DNA of 22,213 nucleotides from a virus: UHGV virus genome UHGV-0117651, one strand, 5' to 3'. The position numbers and the translations under genes are program-made. Positions 9,845-18,935 of this stretch are shown in pieces (position 1 is the first letter of the stretch; each line of letters begins with the position of its first letter). The notes beneath the pieces were generated by a model. It was not told the origin of the DNA and did no database searches. It saw nothing but the letters and a program-made list of their open reading frames with translations.

Positions 9845-11596
9845 ATGATTCAGGACGCTTTTGTGCGCCAGCGTGCGCGGCAACTTTACTGGCAGGGTTA
9901 TCCGCCCGCAGAAATATCACGTCTGATGGGAATAAACCCGAACACGATTTATGCGTGGAAAAAACGCGACCAGTGGGATGAAACGCCACCCGTGCAGCGT
10001 GTCACGCAGTCCATCGATGCGCGCCTCATCCAGCTTACTGAAAAACAGAATAAAACAGGCGGTGACTTTAAGGAAATTGACCTGCTGACCCGGCAGCTTA
10101 AAAAAATGCATGATGGCCAGCCGGATGCGACGGCCACAGGAAAGAAAGGCCGGGCGAAAAAACTCAAAAATCATTTCACGCCGGAACAGATTGCCGCACT
10201 GCGGGAAAAAATCATCAGCAGGCTGGAGTGGCATCAGCGGGGCTGGTTTGACTCCCTGACCCTTTGCAGGGAAGCCGGGATACGTAACAGGATGATCCTG
10301 AAATCCCGACAGATTGGCGCGACCTGGTATTTTGCACAGGAAGCACTGCTGATGGCGCTGCGTGACGATGTGGCGCAACCTTACCAGCGTAACCAGATTT
10401 TTTTGTCTGCGTCGCGTCGTCAGGCGTTCCAGTTTAAAAGCATTATTCAGAAGGCTGCGGCTGAAGTTGATGTGGAGCTGAAAGGGGGCGATAAAATCAT
10501 CCTCTCCAACGGCGCAGAGCTGCATTTTCTCGGCACTTCTGCTGCGTCGGCGCAGTCCTATACGGGCAATTTTTATTTTGATGAATTTTTCTGGGTCAGT
10601 CGCTTTGCTGAACTGCGCAAGGTGGCTGGCGCTATGGCAACCCTCAGCGGATTGCGGCGCACCTACTTCTCCACGCCATCCACCGAAACGCACGAAGCAT
10701 ACGCCTACTGGAACGGCGACCGCTGGAACGAGAAAAAGGCCACACATAAACGCCAGCGTTTTTCTGTGGACTGGAAAACACTGCATAACGGGCTTATCTG
10801 CCCTGACCGGACGTGGCGGCAAATTGTCACGCTGGAAGATGTGGTTAATCACGGCTGGAAACACACCGATATCGACGAAATTCGTGATGAAAACACCGAA
10901 GACGAGTTCCTCAATCTCTATATGTGTGAGTTTGTCCGCGAAGGGGAATCGGCATTTAACCTGAATATCCTGATTGGCTGCGGTGTTGACGGATACGACG
11001 ACTGGAAAGACTGGAAACCTTTTGCTCCCCGCCCGATGGGGAATCGTCCGGTATGGATTGGGTATGACGCAAACGGCAGCAGTGGCAACGGCGACAGCGG
11101 CGCTGTGTCCGTGGTGGTTCCTCCGGCTGTTCCTGGTGGCCGTTTTCGAACGGTGGAGACGCGACGCGTTCAGGGGCTGGAGTTTGAAGAACAGGCCAGA
11201 GTCATTGAAGATTTCACGTATCGCTACAACGTGGAACACATCGGCATTGATGTGACGGGCGGGAACGGGGAGGCTGTTTATCAGATAGTGAAACGGTTTT
11301 TCCCTGCCGCTATTCCGTACACCTTCACGCTGTCATCAAAACGGTCGCTTGTACTGAAAATGCTGCAAATAATGCGTGCCGGGCGGTGGGAATACGATCG
11401 CGCCGAACGCGAGCTGGTCGCGGCCTTTAACGCCGTGCGTAAGGTGAAAACACCGGGCGGCTTTATCACTTACGAAACGGACCGCGCGAGGGGGATCAGC
11501 CACGGCGACCTTGCGTGGGCAACCATGCTTGCTGTCATTAACGAACCAATTGGCGGCGAAGGAGAAAACGAGCGTTTCACGGTTATGGAGTTCTGA
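9845..11596 (+). CDS. P: Terminase large (ATPase) subunit gpP
   Basis: 583-aa ORF. Its size and position upstream of the portal gene match the P2 gpP family. Strong GGGGGAG ribosome-binding site. Confidence 0.85.
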   Translation: MIQDAFVRQRARQLYWQGYPPAEISRLMGINPNTIYAWKKRDQWDETPPVQRVTQSIDARLIQLTEKQNKTGGDFKEIDLLTRQLKKMHDGQPDATATGKKGRAKKLKNHFTPEQIAALREKIISRLEWHQRGWFDSLTLCREAGIRNRMILKSRQIGATWYFAQEALLMALRDDVAQPYQRNQIFLSASRRQAFQFKSIIQKAAAEVDVELKGGDKIILSNGAELHFLGTSAASAQSYTGNFYFDEFFWVSRFAELRKVAGAMATLSGLRRTYFSTPSTETHEAYAYWNGDRWNEKKATHKRQRFSVDWKTLHNGLICPDRTWRQIVTLEDVVNHGWKHTDIDEIRDENTEDEFLNLYMCEFVREGESAFNLNILIGCGVDGYDDWKDWKPFAPRPMGNRPVWIGYDANGSSGNGDSGAVSVVVPPAVPGGRFRTVETRRVQGLEFEEQARVIEDFTYRYNVEHIGIDVTGGNGEAVYQIVKRFFPAAIPYTFTLSSKRSLVLKMLQIMRAGRWEYDRAERELVAAFNAVRKVKTPGGFITYETDRARGISHGDLAWATMLAVINEPIGGEGENERFTVMEF

Positions 11597-12642
11597 TGAG
11601 CAGAAAAAATAAAAAAGTGCGCATGAGTTCACGCATTGATCTCGCTGATGCACTCAGGAAAGAATCGTCGCTCAGTGCATTCACTTTTGATGGTCCTTAT
11701 CGCCTGACCGGGCATGATTTGCTGGACAATATGTACTGTGCTGATAACGGGCGGTGGTATGAAACCCCGGTGGACTGGTACGGTCTGGCAAGAGCCGCCC
11801 GGCAAACGTCCTGGCATCAGTCTGCGCTTTACTTTAAGCGCAATGTATTGCTCGGTTGCTACATCCCGCACCCGCTGCTTTCCCGGCAGGATTTCTCGGC
11901 ACTGGCGCTGGACTGGTTTGTGTTCGGTAACGCATTCCTTGAGCTTCGAAGCAATATGCTCGGCGAACCGCTTAAATTACGGCACGCCCTGGCGAAATAC
12001 ATACGACGCGGAAGCGATCTTGAATCATGGTGGTATGTGCAGGATGGCAAGGATGCGTTCCAGTTTCGCCCTGGCAAAGTGTGCCACCTGATGAATCCTG
12101 ACATTAACCAGGAAATCTACGGCATGCCGGAATATCTCGGCGCATTACTCTCGGCCAGCCTGTCTCATTCGGCGGACATGTTCAGAAAACTGTATTACGA
12201 CAACGGATCCCACGCCGGGTGCATCATCTACATCGGTGCAGCGCAGGTAAACCGCGAAAGCATGGACTCTCTGAAAGAAACGCTACAGGGTGCACGTGGT
12301 GGCGGTGCGTTTAAAAACGTGCTCATTCATGCGCCCAACGGGGGCAAAGAGGGGGTGCAAATTTTGCCGTTCCAGCAGATCACCGCAAAGGATGAGTTCA
12401 TGAATGTTAAGGCTGCATCCCGTGATGATGTGCTGGCTGCGCACCGCGTTCCGCCGCAACTAATGGGGGCGATGCCGGGTGAAAAAAGTGCGTTTGGTGA
12501 TGTGGAGAAGGCCGCGCGGGTTTACGCAATTAACGAGCTGATGCCCATCATGGAGGCCATGAAGCACATCAATGACTGGCTTGGCGAAGAGGTGATCCGC
12601 TTTAACCCTTACGCACTGTTAGATACCCAGCTCACATCCTGA
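11596..12642 (+). CDS. Q: Portal (capsid portal vertex) protein gpQ
   Basis: 348-aa ORF whose start overlaps the gpP stop (TGATGA). Size and synteny match P2 gpQ. Confidence 0.85.
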   Translation: MSRKNKKVRMSSRIDLADALRKESSLSAFTFDGPYRLTGHDLLDNMYCADNGRWYETPVDWYGLARAARQTSWHQSALYFKRNVLLGCYIPHPLLSRQDFSALALDWFVFGNAFLELRSNMLGEPLKLRHALAKYIRRGSDLESWWYVQDGKDAFQFRPGKVCHLMNPDINQEIYGMPEYLGALLSASLSHSADMFRKLYYDNGSHAGCIIYIGAAQVNRESMDSLKETLQGARGGGAFKNVLIHAPNGGKEGVQILPFQQITAKDEFMNVKAASRDDVLAAHRVPPQLMGAMPGEKSAFGDVEKAARVYAINELMPIMEAMKHINDWLGEEVIRFNPYALLDTQLTS

Positions 12643-12669
12643 CGCGCTTCGCTTGTCTGCTGCTTCGCC

Positions 12670-12691
12670 GGGGCATAAAAAATTTATGCCC
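12670..12691. repeat. Perfect palindrome GGGGCATAAA-AA-TTTATGCCCC, 28 nt past the gpQ stop (hairpin; possible terminator or part of the cos region)
   Basis: Read directly from the sequence. In P2 the cos site lies about 100 bp beyond the end of Q. Confidence 0.35.
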
Positions 12692-13094
12692 CGACTCTCC
12701 AGCTCCTGTATCAGTCAGATAATTTCACGACGCTTTACAGTATATCGCCACCATCGACGGTCAGACTCTTACGCAATCCCACCGCGTTGACTGCATGTTC
12801 TTCGCCGCCTCAGTGCGATTTTGACGGCCTTACCTTTCACCCCATCAAATCAGAATCCCTCACGTATTTTTCACGCTCAGCGTGAGAAATACAGCCATTC
12901 TGTTGTGTCTCTGCGACATCGTTCAGGGAATGCTATTTACCCCCTGAAACGCGGGCTGTTCCCCCGTCACCTGCGCGTAGAAAAAACGCGTTTTTTGTGC
13001 ACGTACGGATCCTTGACGGATCCAGCCGCCACGCGGGCCGGAAGTACAAAAAGTCGTTCAAAAAAATTGTGCAAACTTGTGCACTATCGTGCAA

Positions 13095-13121
13095 ACAAAA
13101 AAAAGCGCCTTATCGGCGCTT
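13095..13121 (-). terminator. Intrinsic terminator for the small - strand ORF
   Basis: AAGCGCC-TTATC-GGCGCTT stem-loop. On the - strand it is followed by a run of eight T. It lies 9 nt after the stop of ORF 13130-13399. Confidence 0.6.
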
Positions 13122-13129
13122 CAAAAATA

Positions 13130-13399
13130 TCAATTGTTGCTGTGTATTAATCGCCAACCACGAACATATGCTTCATAGGCATCTCTGTGCCTTACAGTTC
13201 CAGCCTGGCTAAACGGAATGTTAGCTAAAACTAAATCATTCTGAGCCATAGCGCGTCCTTCAAGCGCATCTTTTATGCCTAGCTCAAAAGCACAGGCAGC
13301 GCATTTGTGCCGACCTTCTTGTCCTTGATATTCAGGGAGAGACAGAAATGTTGGGTTATAACGATGAGGGTTCTTGCAAATACCTGTTTTAGCCCGCAC
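13130..13399 (-). CDS. Hypothetical small protein (89 aa, GTG start)
   Basis: GAGG lies 8 nt upstream of the GTG at 13399 and a strong terminator lies just after the stop. No recognisable family. Contains Cys at C8, C33 and C36. Confidence 0.4.
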   Translation of the reverse strand: MRAKTGICKNPHRYNPTFLSLPEYQGQEGRHKCAACAFELGIKDALEGRAMAQNDLVLANIPFSQAGTVRHRDAYEAYVRGWRLIHSNN

Positions 13400-13420
13400 T
13401 TTATTTACCTCATAGGAAAA

Positions 13421-13501
13421 ATATGCGTGCCTTTACAGAGGTGCGTGTAAGCAATAAAATATACGACGCACATTTTGATTTACTTCGGAAGGCACGCATA
13501 T
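13421..13501. repeat. 13-bp perfect inverted repeat ATATGCGTGCCTT / AAGGCACGCATAT with a 55-bp spacer
   Basis: Read directly from the sequence. It lies just upstream (in - strand terms) of the ribosome-binding site of the small ORF. The spacer holds a second imperfect dyad, GTGCGTG...ACGACGCAC. Confidence 0.45.
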
Positions 13502-13530
13502 CAGGTTAAGTGAGTCCGACCGAGTTTTAC

Positions 13531-13563
13531 GCCCCAATAGTTGCTGCTATTGGGGCGTTTTGC
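13531..13563 (+). terminator. Intrinsic terminator on the + strand (GCCCCAATAG-TTGCTG-CTATTGGGGC, then GTTTTGC)
   Basis: Perfect 10-bp stem with a 6-nt loop and a T-tract on the + strand only. No + strand coding gene ends here, so it may terminate a small noncoding transcript. Confidence 0.45.
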
Positions 13564-13763
13564 ATGGACAATGCCGCGCAATTATCTTGTCGCTCACAAT
13601 GCGAACGATCTTACAAAAAGGCACATTACTGTCAAGATAATTGATCGTTTTAATCGATAGATAATAGACAATCTATTTGTTTAACAGATCGATTATTGAA
13701 GTAAGTGTGCCAAATGGAATGATACTGTTTCTATAAATGTGAGCATTTTTCGCGCAGATGCTT

Positions 13764-14075
13764 TTACTCAGGAAATAACGCCCGGATATTCCCAGCCATC
13801 TGGCTGGTTATCTTAGCCACTGGTGCAGACTGTGCTTCAAACTTTTTTGAGCTGATTTGTGTCACAGGTAAAATCTCATCATCAGCCCATGCGGTCAGTC
13901 GGTAAGCCTCTGCCGGATTCGTCTTCAGAAGTGCCAGCCCGGCCAGAAAAGCCACGCGTTGGCCGCTTTTGCGGGCTTCTGGTGTAAGGCTGTCCAGCCA
14001 GGCGCATGCTTCTCCTTCGTTCTTGACGGCAGCTGGCTTCAGATAGAAACTTATTCTTCTGGTTGGTGTCGTCAT
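13764..14075 (-). CDS. parR: Plasmid partition adaptor ParR (StbB-like)
   Basis: 103-aa ORF immediately after parM with a 4-nt gap. Its N-terminal region (ISFYLKPA...LDSLTPEARKSGQRVAFLAGLALL) resembles R1 ParR as I recall it. Confidence 0.7.
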   Translation of the reverse strand: MTTPTRRISFYLKPAAVKNEGEACAWLDSLTPEARKSGQRVAFLAGLALLKTNPAEAYRLTAWADDEILPVTQISSKKFEAQSAPVAKITSQMAGNIRALFPE

Positions 14076-14079
14076 TGGT

Positions 14080-15039
14080 TTACTCCTTGTTCATTGCGTA
14101 CAGCCCATTAACCAGAGCAAACTGTGGCACCCCGTCCGCGATGAAAGTCGCATTAACTCCGCAGGCTTCGCGGATAGCGGGTGCCACAATCTCCGCCCCG
14201 CCACCGACAACCATCACCCGCCCGTAACCGGAAAAACCCGCCAGCGCGCGGATCACTCGTTGTTTCAGTGTCTCCTCCTTTTCACGAATAACCGCCATCA
14301 GGCTGTTGTAATGCGCGTCATTGTGAATGTGCTGGCGCAGCCAGGCTTCATCGTGACGGTGCTCAATAATGGTATTGGCGATGTGGTGACTGGTACGCAT
14401 ACCGTTAGTGGCCATCACCGACAGCACGGCATCAGCCATCAGGGAAACGCCTACGTGTGGATCGCAAAACACCTGGCTGATACCTGCCAGCTGCCCCTGA
14501 ACCTTTGCCACATCCAGCGTGGTTCCGCCCAAATCCACAATCAGCAGGGATTCAAACGGACTCATGTCAGCCAGTGCCTTAAAGCCAGCCGGAATGGATT
14601 CAGGCATAACCCGCACGTTACGGATAGTGAATGCTTCGCCGTTCTGGTACTCCACCGGGCGCATAACGTTCGCTTTTTTGCGGTTGATGTTGGCTATGTC
14701 CGGCTGTGCGTTTGTGTCGAAATACTCGCTCAGTGGCAGGGTGACAACCACATCCACCTCCTGTGGCGTGATGCCTGATTTGACCAGCGCGTGATGAATG
14801 GCAATGACATTCACATCACTGTACTGGTATTGCGTGTCGGTCGTCTGGACAAAGCGATCGCTGACCGGATCAAAACCATAGCGCACGCCATCAAGCATGT
14901 AGTTCGCGGGCTGCGTGCCACCGAACGGCGCAGACCATTCCGACTTGAAGCTGTTCGGGCTGATGGCGTTGCGGCGTTCGCCGTTCTCAGTCCATGCCAG
15001 CTTGATGTTGGTGGAGCCGTCGTCAATACAAATTTTCAT
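14080..15039 (-). CDS. parM: Actin-like plasmid segregation ATPase ParM (StbA)
   Basis: MKICIDDGSTNIKLAW, ISPNSFK, YSDVNVIAIHHAL, LLIVDLGGTTLDV, GFSGYGRVMVVGGGAEI and LVNGLYAM closely match the R1 ParM motifs as I recall them. AAGGA ribosome-binding site. Confidence 0.9.
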   Translation of the reverse strand: MKICIDDGSTNIKLAWTENGERRNAISPNSFKSEWSAPFGGTQPANYMLDGVRYGFDPVSDRFVQTTDTQYQYSDVNVIAIHHALVKSGITPQEVDVVVTLPLSEYFDTNAQPDIANINRKKANVMRPVEYQNGEAFTIRNVRVMPESIPAGFKALADMSPFESLLIVDLGGTTLDVAKVQGQLAGISQVFCDPHVGVSLMADAVLSVMATNGMRTSHHIANTIIEHRHDEAWLRQHIHNDAHYNSLMAVIREKEETLKQRVIRALAGFSGYGRVMVVGGGAEIVAPAIREACGVNATFIADGVPQFALVNGLYAMNKE

Positions 15040-15070
15040 GTCGCTTTTCCTTATGTTGATTAATTAATCG

Positions 15071-15181
15071 TTTACGGGATTCTGAAATCCCGTTTTTGCC
15101 TGTTTTGTGCGCGCTTCATATATCGCTGCGCGTTTTTTGCTCATTTACGGGATTCGTGAGTCCCGTTTCTGTCTGTTTTTT
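15071..15181. repeat. Two ~38-bp direct repeats, each with an internal dyad (TTTACGGGATTC-N-TCCCGTTT...CTGTTTT), spaced 73 bp apart: candidate parC-like centromere or operator, or + strand terminators
   Basis: Copy 1 at 15071-15108 and copy 2 at 15144-15181, read directly. A GATTAATTAATC palindrome lies at 15058-15069, next to the parM start. Copy 2 lies inside the last codons of the gpA ORF. Confidence 0.45.
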
Positions 15182-17938
15182 GTTTCCACTGGTCAGGCCA
15201 CCCCGCAGCAGGTCTGCTTTGCGGCTGGCGCGTTCAGTGGTTTCACTGATTCTCTGTGCGTGCTCTGCGTCGCGGATGGCGCGCAGCATGTCAGAAAGCA
15301 CGGTAACGGGAGTTTTCATGGTGTTCTGGTCCTGCTGAATTGTGGATGCCAGGCGTGCGGCGGCTTCGGGTTCTGATGCCCCGAGCTGCTCCAGATAGCT
15401 GGCGACCGGGTTATGGCGGATCTCCATGCTGCATACGCCGTGATTACGGCTCAGGCGCTGCCAGAGCTGCGTGATTCGGCTGTCCGGGCGGGTATCCGGT
15501 TTGCGTACAATTTCAAATCCCTGCGGTGCAATGATGCTGCCGTCAACGTACAGACTGCCGCCCCGTAACAGGTGCTGCATCTGTTGTTCACCGATATGCA
15601 GGCCGAGAGATTCAGCAGACTCCCGCCATTCTTTAGCGAGTAATTCGTGGTTATCAGGCAAAGGCCGCTGCTGTTTGCGGCTCTGTGTCCAGCTCTGCAT
15701 TTCATCACTGCTGTTTTTTGCCTGTTTGTCACGAAGCGAACGCATCAGCGCCCGGCGTTCGTGCCGTTTCAGTGAGCGCATCCATTCGTTCACTTCAACG
15801 CCGTCAGGAAGCTGCGGCCACGGTGCTGGCCGTTCTTCCGACTGTTCTGTCCCGCTGTTGCCTGTTTCCTGTACACGGGGACAGTTATTGCCACGAGTCC
15901 AAGGGGCGGCAGGGCCGCCCTGAAGGTCAAAACCATTTTCGCGGGCGCTGTCTTCCGCTTCCGGTTTGCGTCTTACCAGCTTCCAGTTATCCGGATGCGT
16001 GCATACGCGGGAAGACTCCCCAATGAGCGGCGACCAGATCCCGTAAATCTGTACGCTCTGTTCACCGTAATCGTTCAGCTCATCTGCGAGGTCGTAGGCG
16101 GTGCGAATCAGGTAGTCTTTGCGTGGAACAAGTACGCCACCCTGTTTCTCAATGTAGGTGGCAAAACATCCGGCATCAGCGGCAGCGAGTACCGCGTCCA
16201 TTGCGTCATCCTTCAGCCGTTGCGGGCCTTCCGGGTTGCGTGCCATCTGGCTGGCAAGGCGGCGCAGTTCACGCCACACCTGACGGGAGGGGATACCAAA
16301 GAACTGGAACTGGCGGACCCGGTGAAGGCGCGCCCAGCCGATGGCGCGTTCCACGCTCTCGGCCATTGATTTTCCGGTTTCGTGGTCAACGCGTGGCTTG
16401 CCCGTTTTCGGGTCGATGCCATCCACGGCGCGGCTGTCCAGGTTTTTTCCGATGTAGGTCGCGATATAGCTGGTTGGTGTGCCTTTTGAGCCGTCGACAT
16501 ACTCCACCTTAAAGCGCGGAGTAATATCATTGCCCAGCTCGTGGCGGTCTTCCTGAATGGCAATATCGCGGGTGATGGCCACGATGCTGTCGATTTCTTC
16601 CGGATGAGCAAAGACCATCATATGCCAGTGCACGGTGCCGTCATGGTGAGGCTCCACCGTGCGGATGCCATACCAGCGCAGACCGTCGCGGTTCAGTTTT
16701 TTGCGGACTGCCGCAAAAAACGTGTTAACCAGGTAATCGCTGGAGTCGCGCATGGTGGCCCCGTTCCATTTGGGGTTCGGATGACCGTTCTCCGTTGTTG
16801 CGTGGTATTTTGACGGGCAGGTGACAGTCAGAAACACCGCTCTGTCGCCACGGGCTTCGGCCAGAAGTTCCAGTCCCTTCATGGTGGCCATCATTTCTGC
16901 CTTACGGTGAACCGGGTTACTTACTCCCGCGTAATACACCGTCTCGAGATCAATCGTGAACCCGTCTTCATTTTCTAGCATGAAACTTTTCAGGAAATCG
17001 CGTGTTTTCTCGCGCTGTGCGCGAAACTCGCTTAACGCGTCCTGGCTCAGATAGGGTGATGTTTTTCTGGAAACCAGACAGGCGGCGCGGAGTTGTTCTT
17101 CTCTCCACTCGCAACGTAACAGCCACAGTTTGCGTTTCCACCATTCCGCACAGGTCAGGCGAAGGATTGCGCCCGGCAGCAGCTCCGTGTCTGGTTCGTT
17201 CCTCCGGTCTTTGTCTGTTGTCAGTGCGTCATAATGTGGAGGCATGGCGTGCAGGTGTAACGCCATGCGGGCCAGCATCTGATACGCCTTCAGCGTTACA
17301 TCCATGGTCAGCTCGCCATCGGTCGCGCCAAAGCCATCGCAGAGTTTTTCGAAGGTGCTGCTGAACATCGCCGCCGTCATGGTGGCCAGCGTCTGTATCT
17401 GGTGTTTGTTGAGCTGCGGCAGGTAAAGCAAATCGTCCAGGCGTTCGCGTCCGGCAAGGGAGCGATAACCCGGTGTCAGCCAGTGTCCGTCAGTGCGATC
17501 CAGACGTTCGAATATTTTGCGCAGGGTTCCGCGTGCATAGCGTTCCGCCTGCCAGCTCTTTTTGCCTTTCCGGCGATCGGCTTCCTGTTTTTTGCGCAGG
17601 AAGGAGAGGTGGCGAATAAGCGGATCGCGCAGATAGGACGGCAGCAGGTGCAGCGAGGCCATGGCTTCATCCACCGCGCCTCGTGCCTGTTTTCTGGCGT
17701 CTCCTGCCAGTGTGATGGTTTTGTCCTGTTTTTCCTGTGCGTCCAGGCTTTTATTAATCAGGTTGCCCAGCGGCGTGGCGGAGAACGCCGCATCAGCCAT
17801 TTCCTGGCGGCGTTCGTTCTCTGCCCGGTAGGCATCCAGCCAGGAGGAAAGCGCGGATTCAGGAGCGGGGATCCCCGTTCCTTCACGCCCCACGGCGTGG
17901 CGCGGTTGTTGCCAGTCCCTGATGTACTCTGCCGTCAT
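15116..17938 (-). CDS. A: Rolling-circle replication initiator or endonuclease (P2 gpA family)
   Basis: 940-aa ORF with an H-x-H metal-binding motif (HWHMMVF) and a Tyr-containing motif (YIATYIGKN), characteristic of gpA-type initiators. It is the last large gene of the early operon. The ORF is longer than gpA as I recall it, with an extended C-terminus. Confidence 0.8.
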   Translation of the reverse strand: MTAEYIRDWQQPRHAVGREGTGIPAPESALSSWLDAYRAENERRQEMADAAFSATPLGNLINKSLDAQEKQDKTITLAGDARKQARGAVDEAMASLHLLPSYLRDPLIRHLSFLRKKQEADRRKGKKSWQAERYARGTLRKIFERLDRTDGHWLTPGYRSLAGRERLDDLLYLPQLNKHQIQTLATMTAAMFSSTFEKLCDGFGATDGELTMDVTLKAYQMLARMALHLHAMPPHYDALTTDKDRRNEPDTELLPGAILRLTCAEWWKRKLWLLRCEWREEQLRAACLVSRKTSPYLSQDALSEFRAQREKTRDFLKSFMLENEDGFTIDLETVYYAGVSNPVHRKAEMMATMKGLELLAEARGDRAVFLTVTCPSKYHATTENGHPNPKWNGATMRDSSDYLVNTFFAAVRKKLNRDGLRWYGIRTVEPHHDGTVHWHMMVFAHPEEIDSIVAITRDIAIQEDRHELGNDITPRFKVEYVDGSKGTPTSYIATYIGKNLDSRAVDGIDPKTGKPRVDHETGKSMAESVERAIGWARLHRVRQFQFFGIPSRQVWRELRRLASQMARNPEGPQRLKDDAMDAVLAAADAGCFATYIEKQGGVLVPRKDYLIRTAYDLADELNDYGEQSVQIYGIWSPLIGESSRVCTHPDNWKLVRRKPEAEDSARENGFDLQGGPAAPWTRGNNCPRVQETGNSGTEQSEERPAPWPQLPDGVEVNEWMRSLKRHERRALMRSLRDKQAKNSSDEMQSWTQSRKQQRPLPDNHELLAKEWRESAESLGLHIGEQQMQHLLRGGSLYVDGSIIAPQGFEIVRKPDTRPDSRITQLWQRLSRNHGVCSMEIRHNPVASYLEQLGASEPEAAARLASTIQQDQNTMKTPVTVLSDMLRAIRDAEHAQRISETTERASRKADLLRGGLTSGNKKQTETGLTNPVNEQKTRSDI

Positions 17939-17944
17939 AGTGAT

Positions 17945-18310
17945 TTACTTCGTCATGCCATTCAGGGTGTCGCGGCAGACGGTAGCCAGCCGCTGAATTT
18001 CCAGCACGGTGTCTTCTGTGTCGGCATGGCGATGTGTGATGCGGATGCTGTCGGCAATCACATCGACGATTGCAGAGGATGGGCGCTGGTAAATGCCAAT
18101 AACGGACGGGGTGCCACCTTCAATGCGGTAAAGCCTGTAATTTCCCTCGTGGCTGTCGATCATGTAGCGACCATCAATAACAATTTTTCCGTCAGCGAGT
18201 TGCGGTACAGGCAGGGATTTCAGGTACATGTCATAACGATCACGCACGCGAGCGGCAAGATCACGTTCTGTGTTGAGCAGGTATTCAAGAAAGTCGTTGG
18301 CGAGAATCAT
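17945..18310 (-). CDS. Hypothetical early-operon protein (121 aa), coupled to gpA
   Basis: ORF ending 7 nt before the gpA start. No family recognised. Confidence 0.5.
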   Translation of the reverse strand: MILANDFLEYLLNTERDLAARVRDRYDMYLKSLPVPQLADGKIVIDGRYMIDSHEGNYRLYRIEGGTPSVIGIYQRPSSAIVDVIADSIRITHRHADTEDTVLEIQRLATVCRDTLNGMTK

Positions 18311-18613: not shown

Positions 18614-18935
18614 GGTGTGGCCCCTTGTGTAGTAAGTTGTGAAAACTCACCATCCAGAGCTGCGAAACTGTGGGTGGCGAGACGTACGAGGTTCGCAGTA
18701 CCGGCTACACAAGAACCCGGCCCGACCGAAGTCGGCCCCGTACGCCCCGCCATAATTCTGACGCGAAAAAAACGTGGCAATACAGTACGCACAAAAAAAC
18801 CGCTGGCGCGGTTGTGCGCTTGTGTAGTCAGCAGGCTGCGAAACCCGACACCCGTTTTGTGAGGTGCAGCGGAAATGTAACCTGACTGATTGCGACATGG
18901 CAAGCGGTTTTTTTGTGTGTGCATGTTCTGGTTTC
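18614..18935 (-). promoter_or_regulatory. Structured noncoding leader inside the early operon, with three copies of a bipartite motif (CTTGTGTAG + GCTGCGAA); the middle copy is inverted
   Basis: Copy 1 at 18623-18661 (direct), copy 2 at 18690-18714 (inverted, GGTTCGCAG...GCTACACAAG) and copy 3 at 18819-18844 (direct). A GC-rich hairpin lies at 18716-18740. Copy 1 overlaps the ribosome-binding site of the 76-aa ORF. Confidence 0.45.

What the first reader, a model, noticed from the sequence alone, without database searches (positions are those of the whole stretch)
13400..13763. AT-rich noncoding region with a 13-bp perfect inverted repeat and a + strand terminator: possible small RNA or operator
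Between parR and the small ORF lies about 360 bp with no ORF of 60 aa or more. It contains a perfect inverted repeat ATATGCGTGCCTT...AAGGCACGCATAT (55-bp spacer), then a strong + strand-only terminator at 13531-13563. A region rich in short palindromes follows at 13600-13740 (AATCGAT...ATCGATT, GATAATTGATC). A + strand transcript of roughly 100-170 nt ending at the terminator would be a structured small RNA antisense to nothing coding. Alternatively the inverted repeat is an operator for the adjacent small protein.
Basis: seen in the sequence. Interest (0 to 1): 0.45.

Follow-up and report, generated by a model that had tools for sequence, protein, structure and literature searches.

The report
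Antisense RNA switch for prophage gene
This AT-rich stretch is most likely the control region of a small gene that a P2-like prophage picked up: it has a promoter, a long folded mRNA leader and a roughly 95-nt antisense RNA that starts inside the inverted repeat, a layout shared by many enterobacterial prophages and apparently not yet described.

Summary
There is a perfect 13-nt inverted repeat (13421-13433 / 13489-13501), a 12-bp GC-rich hairpin with a UUUU tail on the + strand (13529-13561), and a palindrome-rich block.

The window is a P88-like (Xuanwuvirus, P2-type) prophage. Positions 13096-13763 are an AT-rich cargo cassette between parR and cos. It holds an 89-aa Cys/His protein gene (13399->13130, minus strand) and its roughly 200-nt leader.

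Sixteen diverged copies of the cassette, from P2-like, lambdoid and Mu-like prophages, share these parts:
- a sigma-70 promoter for the gene (window 13635->13608), found in 15 of 16;
- the GC hairpin;
- a long hairpin just upstream of the ribosome-binding site;
- inside that hairpin, an opposite-strand promoter with an invariant TTTACA, a 17-18-nt unrelated spacer and TAnnnT.

I therefore predict a + strand RNA of about 95 nt (about 13467-13561) that is antisense to the gene's 5' UTR. It contains only the right arm of the repeat. The repeat itself is an mRNA hairpin: its sequence drifts (42% identity to a sister lineage) while the pairing is kept.

No Rfam, Pfam or NCBIfam family matches, and no paper was found. 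Transcription, repression and protein function are all untested.

Verdict: a new member of a known kind (cis-antisense control).

The parts
13096..13763 (.). AT-rich cargo cassette (moron) between the parR stop codon and the cos-proximal region: terminator, small ORF, leader, promoters and upstream block.
   Evidence: Phage P88 is collinear up to about 13095 and from 13764 onward, but carries different genes (gp19/gp20) in between. GC is 41.3% here against 52.8% for the window.
13102..13122 (-). Intrinsic terminator ending the small-ORF transcript (GAAGCGCCGATAAGGCGCTTT followed by a T-run).
   Evidence: Terminator scan: 8 pairs followed by TTTTTGTTTG.
13130..13399 (-). Small ORF of 89 aa with a GTG start. 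Cys/His protein with a tandem 'P-x-SQAG-xx-RHK' motif; function unknown.
   Evidence: ORF list. phrog_3941, E = 6e-49, unknown function. 1810 homologues, all unnamed and without Pfam. Invariant C8, H12, C33, C36. AF2 model with pLDDT 85.8.
13408..13411 (-). Shine-Dalgarno GAGG, 8 nt upstream of the GTG start.
   Evidence: Read directly from the sequence.
13400..13600 (-). Predicted 5' UTR (about 201 nt) of the small-ORF mRNA. It has a 5' hairpin, the GC hairpin, the long repeat hairpin, and then SD and start codon.
   Evidence: Fold of 13605->13390: -74.1 kcal/mol, z = -4.4. The same element order is seen in 16 diverged homologues.
13421..13501 (-). Long hairpin of the leader. The 13-nt perfect repeat (13421-13433 / 13489-13501) forms the outer helix and a nested inner helix (GTGCGT/ACGCAC) lies within it. 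The antisense promoter sits inside this hairpin.
   Evidence: A hairpin is present in all 16 lineages. This segment is only 42% identical to L002 although the pairing is kept.
13432..13460 (+). Antisense promoter: -35 TTTACA (13432-13437), 17-nt spacer, -10 TAAAAT (13455-13460).
   Evidence: Promoter scan, 10/12 match. In 16 lineages the -35 is invariant, the spacer is 17 nt (18 in one) with unrelated sequence, and the -10 is always TAnnnT. TGTAAAG is the only invariant block of the leader alignment.
13467..13561 (+). Predicted cis-antisense small RNA of about 95 nt: 5' tail, imperfect stem-loop, GUUUUA linker, terminator hairpin, UUUU.
   Evidence: Fold -35.6 kcal/mol, z = -4.0. In 13 of 15 lineages this strand folds better than its complement, with sums of -379 against -335 kcal/mol and 44 against 25 G-U pairs. 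A covariance model built from the homologues hits the + strand at 13527-13561.
13529..13558 (+). Terminator hairpin of the antisense RNA (12-bp stem, 6-nt loop) with its U-tract running to 13561. The same hairpin, without a U-tract, sits inside the sense leader.
   Evidence: I14. 8 of 9 pairs show compensatory changes and 91.7% of cells are paired across homologues. 86% identical to L002.
13608..13635 (-). Promoter of the small ORF: -35 TTGACA (13635->13630), 16-nt spacer, -10 TAAGAT (13613->13608). Predicted start near 13600. GATC at 13607-13610 overlaps the 3' end of the -10.
   Evidence: Promoter scan, 10/12 match. An equivalent promoter is found in 15 of 16 lineages. GATC positions.
13636..13705 (.). 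Palindrome- and ATCGAT/GATC-rich block abutting the -35 of the sense promoter. Candidate binding site for an unknown regulator. GATC at 13643-13646 and 13687-13690.
   Evidence: 83% identical to L002 while neighbouring leader segments are 38-55%. Present only in loci that carry the cassette and absent from P88, which has parMR.

Best explanation
The region is the regulatory leader of a horizontally acquired prophage gene (a moron), controlled by a cis-encoded antisense RNA.

1. Sense transcript. A minus-strand sigma-70 promoter (13635->13608) would start an mRNA near 13600. This mRNA carries a roughly 200-nt structured 5' UTR, the 89-aa ORF and the terminator at 13122->13102.
2. Antisense transcript. 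Inside the UTR, between the two arms of the 13-nt repeat, a + strand promoter (TTTACA-17-TAAAAT) would start an RNA of about 95 nt near 13467. It ends at the 13529-13558 hairpin and its UUUU tail. The two promoters are convergent and about 133 bp apart, and the small RNA is fully complementary to the middle of the UTR.
3. The repeat. It is an RNA hairpin of the sense leader, lying just upstream of the ribosome-binding site.
4. Inferred action. Pairing of the antisense RNA with the upstream half of this hairpin frees the downstream half, which then re-pairs with the SD/start region. In the window the antisense 5' end may also pair with that region directly. Either way translation is lowered. 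Interference between the convergent promoters may add to this.
5. Upstream block. The palindromic block at 13636-13705 is probably a regulator-binding site for the sense promoter. The GATC overlapping its -10 suggests sensitivity to Dam methylation.

What is shown and what is not: the sequence anatomy and its conservation are shown. That either RNA is made, that the effect is repression, and what the protein does are inferred.
For: Context:
- The window is a P88-like prophage with the order terminase, portal, cos, cargo, parR, parM, gpA. The cargo differs in P88.

Conserved architecture in 16 diverged homologues from P2-like, lambdoid, Mu-like and other prophage positions:
- Sense promoter in 15 of 16.
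- Antisense promoter with an invariant -35, a spacer of fixed length but free sequence, and a TAnnnT -10. TGTAAAG is the only invariant block of the leader alignment.
- Terminator hairpin with 8 of 9 compensatory pairs and 91.7% of cells paired. The covariation score is 0.43 against 0.23 in shuffles (0 of 500 as high) and is higher than every slid control.

Strand tests:
- The antisense RNA folds better than its complement in 13 of 15 lineages, and its G-U pairs would be A-C mismatches on the other strand.
- The T-rich tail is on the antisense strand only.

The repeat as an RNA hairpin:
- It is only 42% identical to L002 although still paired, while the ORF is 61% identical.
- A hairpin is present in all 16 lineages, and the sense strand is favoured in 12 of 16.

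Mechanism:
- Forcing the antisense-target region to be unpaired lowers the predicted accessibility of SD and start codon in 15 of 16 lineages (window 0.54 to 0.44; L007 0.23 to 0.00).
- In the window, the antisense 5' end forms a duplex with the translation-initiation region at -19.8 kcal/mol; 14 of 300 shuffles do as well.

The ORF is a real gene: 1810 homologues and a confident AF2 model.
Against: - There are no expression data. All promoters and RNA ends are predictions.
- The window-wide promoter scan is not enriched over shuffles (3 found, 2.8 expected). The case for the promoters rests on conservation.
- The U-tract is short (UUUU). In many homologues it is interrupted (UUUCCCUUU, UUCCUAUAU), so termination efficiency is uncertain, and the simple scan missed the hairpin.
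- The window's antisense RNA matches the family covariance model only over the terminator (24.5-27.4 bits). Its 5' 60 nt has no sequence counterpart in the other lineages.
- The first stem-loop of the family is only 59% paired in a common register.
- The accessibility shift in the window itself is small (0.54 to 0.44), and direct antisense-to-start-region pairing is not general (mean z = -1.1).
- The 16 lineages are not independent; roughly 7-8 groups are distinct.
- Distant homologues of the protein in other phyla lack the leader altogether.
Confidence: 0.6

Rival explanations
1. The inverted repeat is a DNA operator. A dimeric regulator, for example the adjacent small Cys/His protein, binds the two arms that flank the + strand promoter and controls it, and possibly the gene as well.
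For: The arms bracket the -35 and -10 of the antisense promoter. The neighbouring protein has four invariant Cys/His residues, and its domain is fused to DNA-related domains elsewhere (DndB, HNH, NOV_C, WYL). Arms and protein could co-evolve.
Against: Arm sequence and spacing are not conserved (42% identity; 55-nt against 47-nt spacer) although the pairing is kept. A nested inner helix lengthens the hairpin, as expected for RNA. Centre-to-centre spacing is 68 bp, about 6.5 helical turns, which puts the half-sites on opposite faces of the DNA. In other lineages G-U wobble pairs replace G-C in the sense orientation.
Confidence: 0.12
2. The + strand RNA is mainly a trans-acting (Hfq-type) small RNA that regulates host or phage mRNAs, and its overlap with the leader is incidental.
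For: A U-rich stretch precedes the terminator hairpin and a U-tail follows it, which resembles the known Hfq-binding module (the comparison is from my own knowledge). A 12-nt perfect match to positions -15 to -4 of the gpA start codon exists.
Against: The RNA always travels with the small ORF and its leader across unrelated phage backbones. About 0.25 such 12-mers are expected by chance per window. In phage 520873 the two sites differ at 3 positions, so the complementarity is not kept. The 5' 'seed' region is the least conserved part.
Confidence: 0.1
3. Leader-peptide coupling, as in plasmid R1 CopA/tap/repA. The antisense RNA blocks translation of a 22-codon upstream ORF (13473->13405) whose stop codon lies 5 nt before the GTG, and the main ORF is translated only by coupling to it.
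For: The upstream ORF exists. Its start codon and SD-like GAAG lie under the 5' end of the predicted antisense RNA, and its stop codon abuts the main start.
Against: No upstream ORF ending near the start was found in 7 of 16 homologues, and where one exists its position and sequence differ. Its SD is weak. It looks like a by-product of a roughly 20-nt duplication of the translation-initiation region.
Confidence: 0.08
4. The region belongs to the partition system. The palindrome-rich block would be the parC centromere bound by ParR, and the hairpin would simply terminate the early operon (gpA-parM-parR).
For: It lies directly downstream of parR, and it contains several short palindromes and direct repeats.
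Against: P88 and other Xuanwuvirus genomes have parMR but lack the block. A similar block occurs with the cassette in a Mu-like Edwardsiella prophage that has no parMR within 3 kb. The hairpin has no T-tract on the parR strand and sits downstream of a conserved promoter. Sister lineages have their own terminator immediately after parR.
Confidence: 0.03

Closest known systems
Type I toxin-antitoxin loci with an antisense RNA against the toxin mRNA (hok/sok; symE/symR against the 5' UTR; ralR/ralA against the coding region). Comparison from my own knowledge.
   Same: A small RNA of about 65-95 nt is made from a promoter inside the mRNA of a small protein. The leader is long and highly structured, and the ribosome-binding site can be sequestered. 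The module is a self-contained mobile cassette on prophages. SymE and RalR show that the protein need not be a membrane peptide.
   Different: There is no sequence or Rfam similarity. The protein is an 89-aa hydrophilic Cys/His protein. Toxicity is untested. Homologues in other phyla lack any antisense partner and sit in restriction-modification operons.
Plasmid R1 CopA/CopT and IncI/IncB Inc RNA control of rep translation. Comparison from my own knowledge.
   Same: The antisense RNA has stem-loops and targets the leader tens of nucleotides upstream of the regulated start codon. It does not cover the main ribosome-binding site and acts indirectly, through coupling or a structural switch. The window even has a tap-like upstream ORF.
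   Different: This is not a replication gene. The upstream ORF is not conserved. No pseudoknot activator was identified. The weak Rfam hit to ctRNA_pGA1 (22 bits against a gathering score of 45) covers only the terminator hairpin.
IS10 RNA-IN / RNA-OUT. Comparison from my own knowledge.
   Same: The sense and antisense promoters are convergent. A GATC overlaps the sense -10, which in IS10 makes the promoter sensitive to Dam methylation. The antisense RNA is stem-loop shaped.
   Different: RNA-OUT covers the transposase ribosome-binding site and start codon. Here the 5' end of the antisense RNA is about 67 nt upstream of the start codon. There is no transposase.
Phage antisense RNAs of lysogeny modules: P22 sar, lambda OOP, P1/P7 C4.
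   Same: These are short phage-encoded antisense RNAs ending at an intrinsic terminator. A genuine C4 RNA lies in the same window at 18670-18757.
   Different: The only similarity to sar is the terminator hairpin (22 bits against a gathering score of 43). The target here is a cargo gene, not an antirepressor or cII.

Membership tests
Any curated Rfam family (Spot 42, sar, ctRNA_pGA1, Sok, SymR, IstR, RNA-OUT, CopA and others) | Covariance-model score at or above the family's gathering threshold | tested here: not met
   Nothing in 12600-14100 reaches threshold. The best hits are 22.1, 22.0 and 19.4 bits against thresholds of 45, 43 and 80. No hit falls in the leader of any of 13 homologous loci.
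Rho-independent terminator | GC-rich stem-loop immediately followed by a U-tract on the transcribed strand | tested here: inconclusive
   The 12-bp stem with 7 G-C pairs is followed by UUUUG on the + strand only. The U-tract has only 4 U, and the pattern scan did not list it. Tails in the homologues are interrupted by C.
cis-encoded antisense RNA regulator | A functional promoter on the opposite strand inside the target transcript | tested here: met
   Sequence-level test only. TTTACA-N17(18)-TAnnnT is kept in 16 of 16 lineages while the spacer sequence is free.
cis-encoded antisense RNA regulator | The antisense transcript is detected and changes target expression | not testable with these tools
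   No transcriptome or reporter data are available. Four literature searches found nothing.
Type I toxin-antitoxin system | The protein is toxic when the antisense RNA is absent | not testable with these tools
   This needs an expression experiment.
Type I toxin-antitoxin system | The toxin is a short (under 60 aa) hydrophobic membrane peptide (the classical kind) | tested here: not met
   The protein is 89 aa with no hydrophobic stretch in the sequence. The AF2 model is a soluble helix-rich fold.
ParMRC centromere (parC) | A repeat array that co-occurs with parMR and is bound by ParR | tested here: not met
   The block is absent from P88, which has parMR. It is present only where the cassette is, and a related block accompanies the cassette in a Mu-like prophage without parMR nearby. 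ParR binding itself was not testable.
Palindromic protein operator (for the 13-nt repeat) | Half-site sequence conserved among homologous elements | tested here: not met
   42% identity to L002 over the repeat, with unrelated arms that still pair.
CopA/tap/repA-type leader-peptide coupling | A conserved leader ORF whose translation-initiation region is the antisense target and whose stop codon abuts the regulated start | tested here: not met
   Such an ORF is present in the window (13473->13405), but none ending near the start was found in 7 of 16 homologues.
Known anti-phage defence protein families (PADLOC) and Pfam/NCBIfam families, for the adjacent ORF | A significant profile match | tested here: not met

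The most novel reading that the evidence does not exclude
The cassette is an undescribed, widespread prophage system. It would encode a small zinc-binding protein that senses DNA or DNA modification; the domain is also found fused to DndB, HNH, WYL and NOV_C nuclease-like domains and sits next to GATC-specific DpnII restriction-modification systems. The protein would be kept silent by its own antisense RNA and a Dam-sensitive promoter, and released when methylation or RNA balance changes, for example during phage replication or superinfection. In other words, it would be a new type I toxin-antitoxin-like defence or anti-restriction module that moves between prophage hot spots: after cI, between Q and the lysis genes, and next to cos.
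Probability: 0.2. Interest if true: 0.7.

Novelty: new member of a known kind. Interest (0 to 1): 0.5.

Why it matters
If confirmed, this defines a new antisense-RNA and leader family that is absent from Rfam. It controls an unannotated small-protein family: about 1800 clusters at 90% identity, with no Pfam or NCBIfam model. The cassette occupies the same prophage slots where lysogenic-conversion and anti-phage genes accumulate.

The cassette is compact, roughly 670 bp, with two promoters, two RNAs and one small protein. That makes it easy to test. It could be a clean model for how morons carry their own post-transcriptional insulation from one phage backbone to another.

The positionally conserved GATC sites, and the link between the protein domain and restriction-modification systems, give a concrete hypothesis about methylation sensing.

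For annotation, it explains a roughly 360-bp 'empty' gap that recurs in at least 166 complete E. coli genomes.

Tried and rejected
- RNAalifold on a MAFFT alignment of the whole leaders gave no consensus structure because the alignment was not structural. I switched to per-element analysis and a covariance model.
- Model R1, built on the RNAalifold structure, captured only the terminator. R2, with a hand-given first stem-loop, recovered all enterobacterial copies but only the terminator in the window. That first stem-loop is only 59% paired in a common register.
- Rfam at gathering and at permissive thresholds, on the window and on the homologues, gave nothing relevant.
- Literature searches for a prophage cis-antisense leader, Xuanwuvirus, the RefSeq protein accession, and P2-like hot spot plus type I TA found no description. 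One further search failed on syntax.
- A conserved leader peptide was rejected.
- General direct pairing of the antisense RNA with the translation-initiation region is not significant across the family.
- The 12-nt complementarity to the gpA ribosome-binding site was rejected as probable chance, because it is not kept in phage 520873.
- The idea that the palindromic block is parC was rejected.
- A retron msr/msd, considered because of the flanking inverted repeat in a P2-like prophage, was dismissed: no reverse transcriptase is nearby and the element is only 81 nt.

Full report
**Observation**

- Positions 13421-13433 (ATATGCGTGCCTT) and 13489-13501 (AAGGCACGCATAT) form a perfect 13-nt inverted repeat with a 55-nt spacer.
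- Positions 13529-13540 and 13547-13558 form a perfect 12-bp hairpin. It is followed by a T-run ending at 13561 on the + strand and by TAAAACTCGG on the other strand.
- No ORF of 60 aa or more lies in 13400-13763.
- GC is 38.7% here against 52.8% for the window.
- The + strand of 13410-13566 folds far better than shuffles (z = -5.6).
- The U-tract is short, and the simple terminator scan did not call the hairpin. 'Strong terminator' is therefore too generous.

**Context**

The window is a P88-like (Xuanwuvirus, Peduoviridae) prophage. The gene order is:
- terminase, 9845-11596;
- portal, 11596-12642;
- a cos-proximal conserved stretch;
- on the minus strand, a small ORF (13399->13130), parR/StbB (14075->13764), parM (15039->14080) and gpA (17938->15116).

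Phage P88 is collinear on both sides but carries two unrelated genes between parR and cos. Positions 13096-13763 are therefore a swappable, AT-rich cargo cassette (41% GC). The same cassette is at least 99% identical in 166 of 5426 complete E. coli genomes.

**The small ORF is a real gene**

- It matches phrog_3941, a family of unknown function.
- A profile search finds 1810 unnamed relatives with no Pfam domain.
- C8, H12, C33 and C36 are invariant.
- AlphaFold gives pLDDT 85.8.
- No fold or family match was found.
- Elsewhere the domain is fused to DndB, WYL, HNH and NOV_C domains.
- In Firmicutes-type contigs it sits in restriction-modification loci, including DpnII-type loci.

In Enterobacterales and Orbales it is a stand-alone gene. 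It is always preceded by about 350-400 nt without genes. It occurs at classic moron positions: after cI, between Q and the lysis genes, in the nin region, next to com/mom of a Mu-like prophage, and here next to cos.

**Comparative anatomy of the gap**

I compared sixteen diverged copies: the window, L002, L050, L004, L005, L051, L006, L007, L012, L060, L063, L070, L072, L074, L076 and L078. Read in the gene's direction, they share the same order of elements:

1. A sigma-70 promoter, found in 15 of 16. In the window it is TTGACA-16-TAAGAT at 13635->13608.
2. A small 5' hairpin.
3. A strong GC hairpin. It is flanked by A-rich sequence on the gene's strand, so the U-rich flanks are on the other strand.
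4. A long imperfect hairpin.
5. The Shine-Dalgarno sequence and start codon.

The only invariant block in the leader alignment is TGTAAAG. It is the reverse complement of CTTTACA. On the opposite strand every lineage has TTTACA, then 17 nt (18 in one) of unrelated sequence, then TAnnnT. In the window this is 13432-13437 and 13455-13460, which lies between the two arms of the repeat.

A fixed -35 and -10 at a fixed distance, with a free spacer, is what a working promoter looks like. It would be very unlikely to persist by chance in 7-8 independent groups. Transcripts from it would start near 13467 and end at the GC hairpin. That gives about 95 nt in the window and 65-75 nt in most relatives.

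**Which strand is structured?**

- *GC hairpin.* It shows compensatory changes in 8 of 9 pairs, and 91.7% of cells are paired. The covariation score (0.43) exceeds all 500 shuffles and every slid control.
- *Antisense RNA.* Its predicted fold is more stable than that of its complement in 13 of 15 lineages. The sums are -379 against -335 kcal/mol, with 44 against 25 G-U pairs. Many pairs of its first stem-loop are G-U, which would be A-C mismatches on the sense strand.
It is present in all 16 lineages and is slightly more stable in the sense orientation in 12 of 16.
- *Window against its sister lineage L002.* The repeat segment is 42% identical, with unrelated arms that still pair. By comparison the ORF is 61%, the terminator 86%, the sense promoter 71% and the palindromic block 83% identical.

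This pattern argues for an RNA helix rather than a DNA operator.

**Mechanism (inferred)**

The small RNA is fully complementary to positions 38-134 of the roughly 201-nt leader. Its 5' end lies about 67 nt upstream of the start codon. It therefore does not cover the ribosome-binding site of the main ORF.

I blocked its target region in silico. This lowered the predicted accessibility of the SD-to-start stretch in 15 of 16 lineages. The shift is modest in the window (0.54 to 0.44) and strong in others (for example 0.23 to 0.00 and 0.51 to 0.11). The cause is that the freed downstream arm of the long hairpin re-pairs with the SD and start codon.

In the window a roughly 20-nt direct repeat of the translation-initiation region lies inside the leader (13487->13468 against 13411->13394). 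It also lets the 5' end of the antisense RNA pair with the real initiation region, at -19.8 kcal/mol; 14 of 300 shuffles do as well. This is not general across the family.

The two promoters are convergent and about 133 bp apart, so transcriptional interference is also possible.

**The palindrome-rich block**

Positions 13636-13705 abut the -35 of the sense promoter and are unusually conserved against L002 (83%). The block occurs only where the cassette occurs. It is missing from P88 despite that phage having parMR, so it is not parC. It is probably a regulator-binding site, and the regulator is unknown.

GATC is about 2.9-fold enriched in the 16 leaders. It sits 10-11 nt upstream of the -35 in 15 of 16 and overlaps the 3' end of the -10 in 9 of 16, including the window at 13607-13610. 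This hints at Dam-dependent control.

**Comparison with known systems**

- No Rfam family matches the window or any homologue. The weak sar and ctRNA hits cover only the terminator hairpin.
- Functionally the module resembles type I toxin-antitoxin loci (hok/sok, symE/symR, ralR/ralA), R1 CopA/CopT and IS10 RNA-IN/RNA-OUT. It fails or cannot be tested on their defining features: protein toxicity, a conserved leader peptide, or coverage of the ribosome-binding site.
- A covariance model built from the relatives finds full-length copies in all enterobacterial loci. In the window it finds only the terminator part. The window therefore carries a divergent variant of the family.
- I found no paper describing the module.

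**Verdict**

The 'small RNA' idea is partly right, but the start point and the target needed correcting. The operator idea is not favoured.

This is an undescribed member of a known kind of regulation. Its interest is moderate, mainly because of how widespread it is and because the protein it controls is unknown.

Noticed in passing
window 18670-18757 (-) and 18793-18867 (-): C4 antisense RNA (83 bits) and isrK (62 bits) lie side by side and both pass the Rfam gathering thresholds. The same pair occurs in an Arsenophonus prophage (L070 5157-5340). This looks like a P1/P7-type antisense immunity module inside a P2-like prophage.
   Followed up: no
window 15068-15109 and 15141-15182: A 42-nt direct repeat (81% identical) lies between the parM start and the 3' end of gpA. 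Each copy has the internal hairpin ACGGGATTC...GAATCCCGT. This is the canonical position for a parC centromere.
   Followed up: no
window 13607-13610, 13643-13646, 13687-13690; 16 homologous leaders: GATC is about 2.9-fold enriched in the 16 leaders. It is positionally conserved: 10-11 nt upstream of the sense -35 in 15 of 16, and overlapping the 3' end of the -10 in 9 of 16. In Firmicutes-type contigs (L066-L069) the protein family sits next to DpnII-type (GATC) restriction-modification genes.
   Followed up: partly
window 13473->13405 (-): A 22-codon upstream ORF (MCVVYFIAYTHLCKGTHIFPMR) has its start under the 5' end of the antisense RNA and its stop 5 nt before the main GTG. The layout resembles tap/repA of plasmid R1, but the ORF is not conserved in homologues.
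   Followed up: yes
window 13476-13487 (+) against 17941-17952: A 12-nt stretch of the predicted small RNA is perfectly complementary to positions -15 to -4 of the gpA (replication initiator) start codon on the minus strand. About 0.25 such matches are expected by chance, and the match is not kept in phage 520873, so it is probably coincidence.
   Followed up: yes
window 12960-13095; L079 1600-1735: A stretch between portal and cargo is conserved with P88. It contains the motif GTGCA repeated several times (for example TTGTGCA, three times) and the palindrome ACGGATCCTTGACGGATCC. It is probably the cos / terminase-recognition region.
   Followed up: no
L002 3263-3550 and L003 3263-3550: Sister cassettes carry a second, unrelated 95-aa gene downstream of the small ORF. 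The small ORF itself (L002 3895->3617) is unannotated in RefSeq in these genomes. It also appears unannotated in many of the 166 near-identical E. coli copies, where the hit tables often list only the parR family protein.
   Followed up: partly
L060 3800-4001 (Salmonella lambdoid prophage): In this copy the sense -10 is degenerate (CCTGAT) and the cassette lies directly downstream of cI. Expression there may depend on read-through from the repressor transcript.
   Followed up: no
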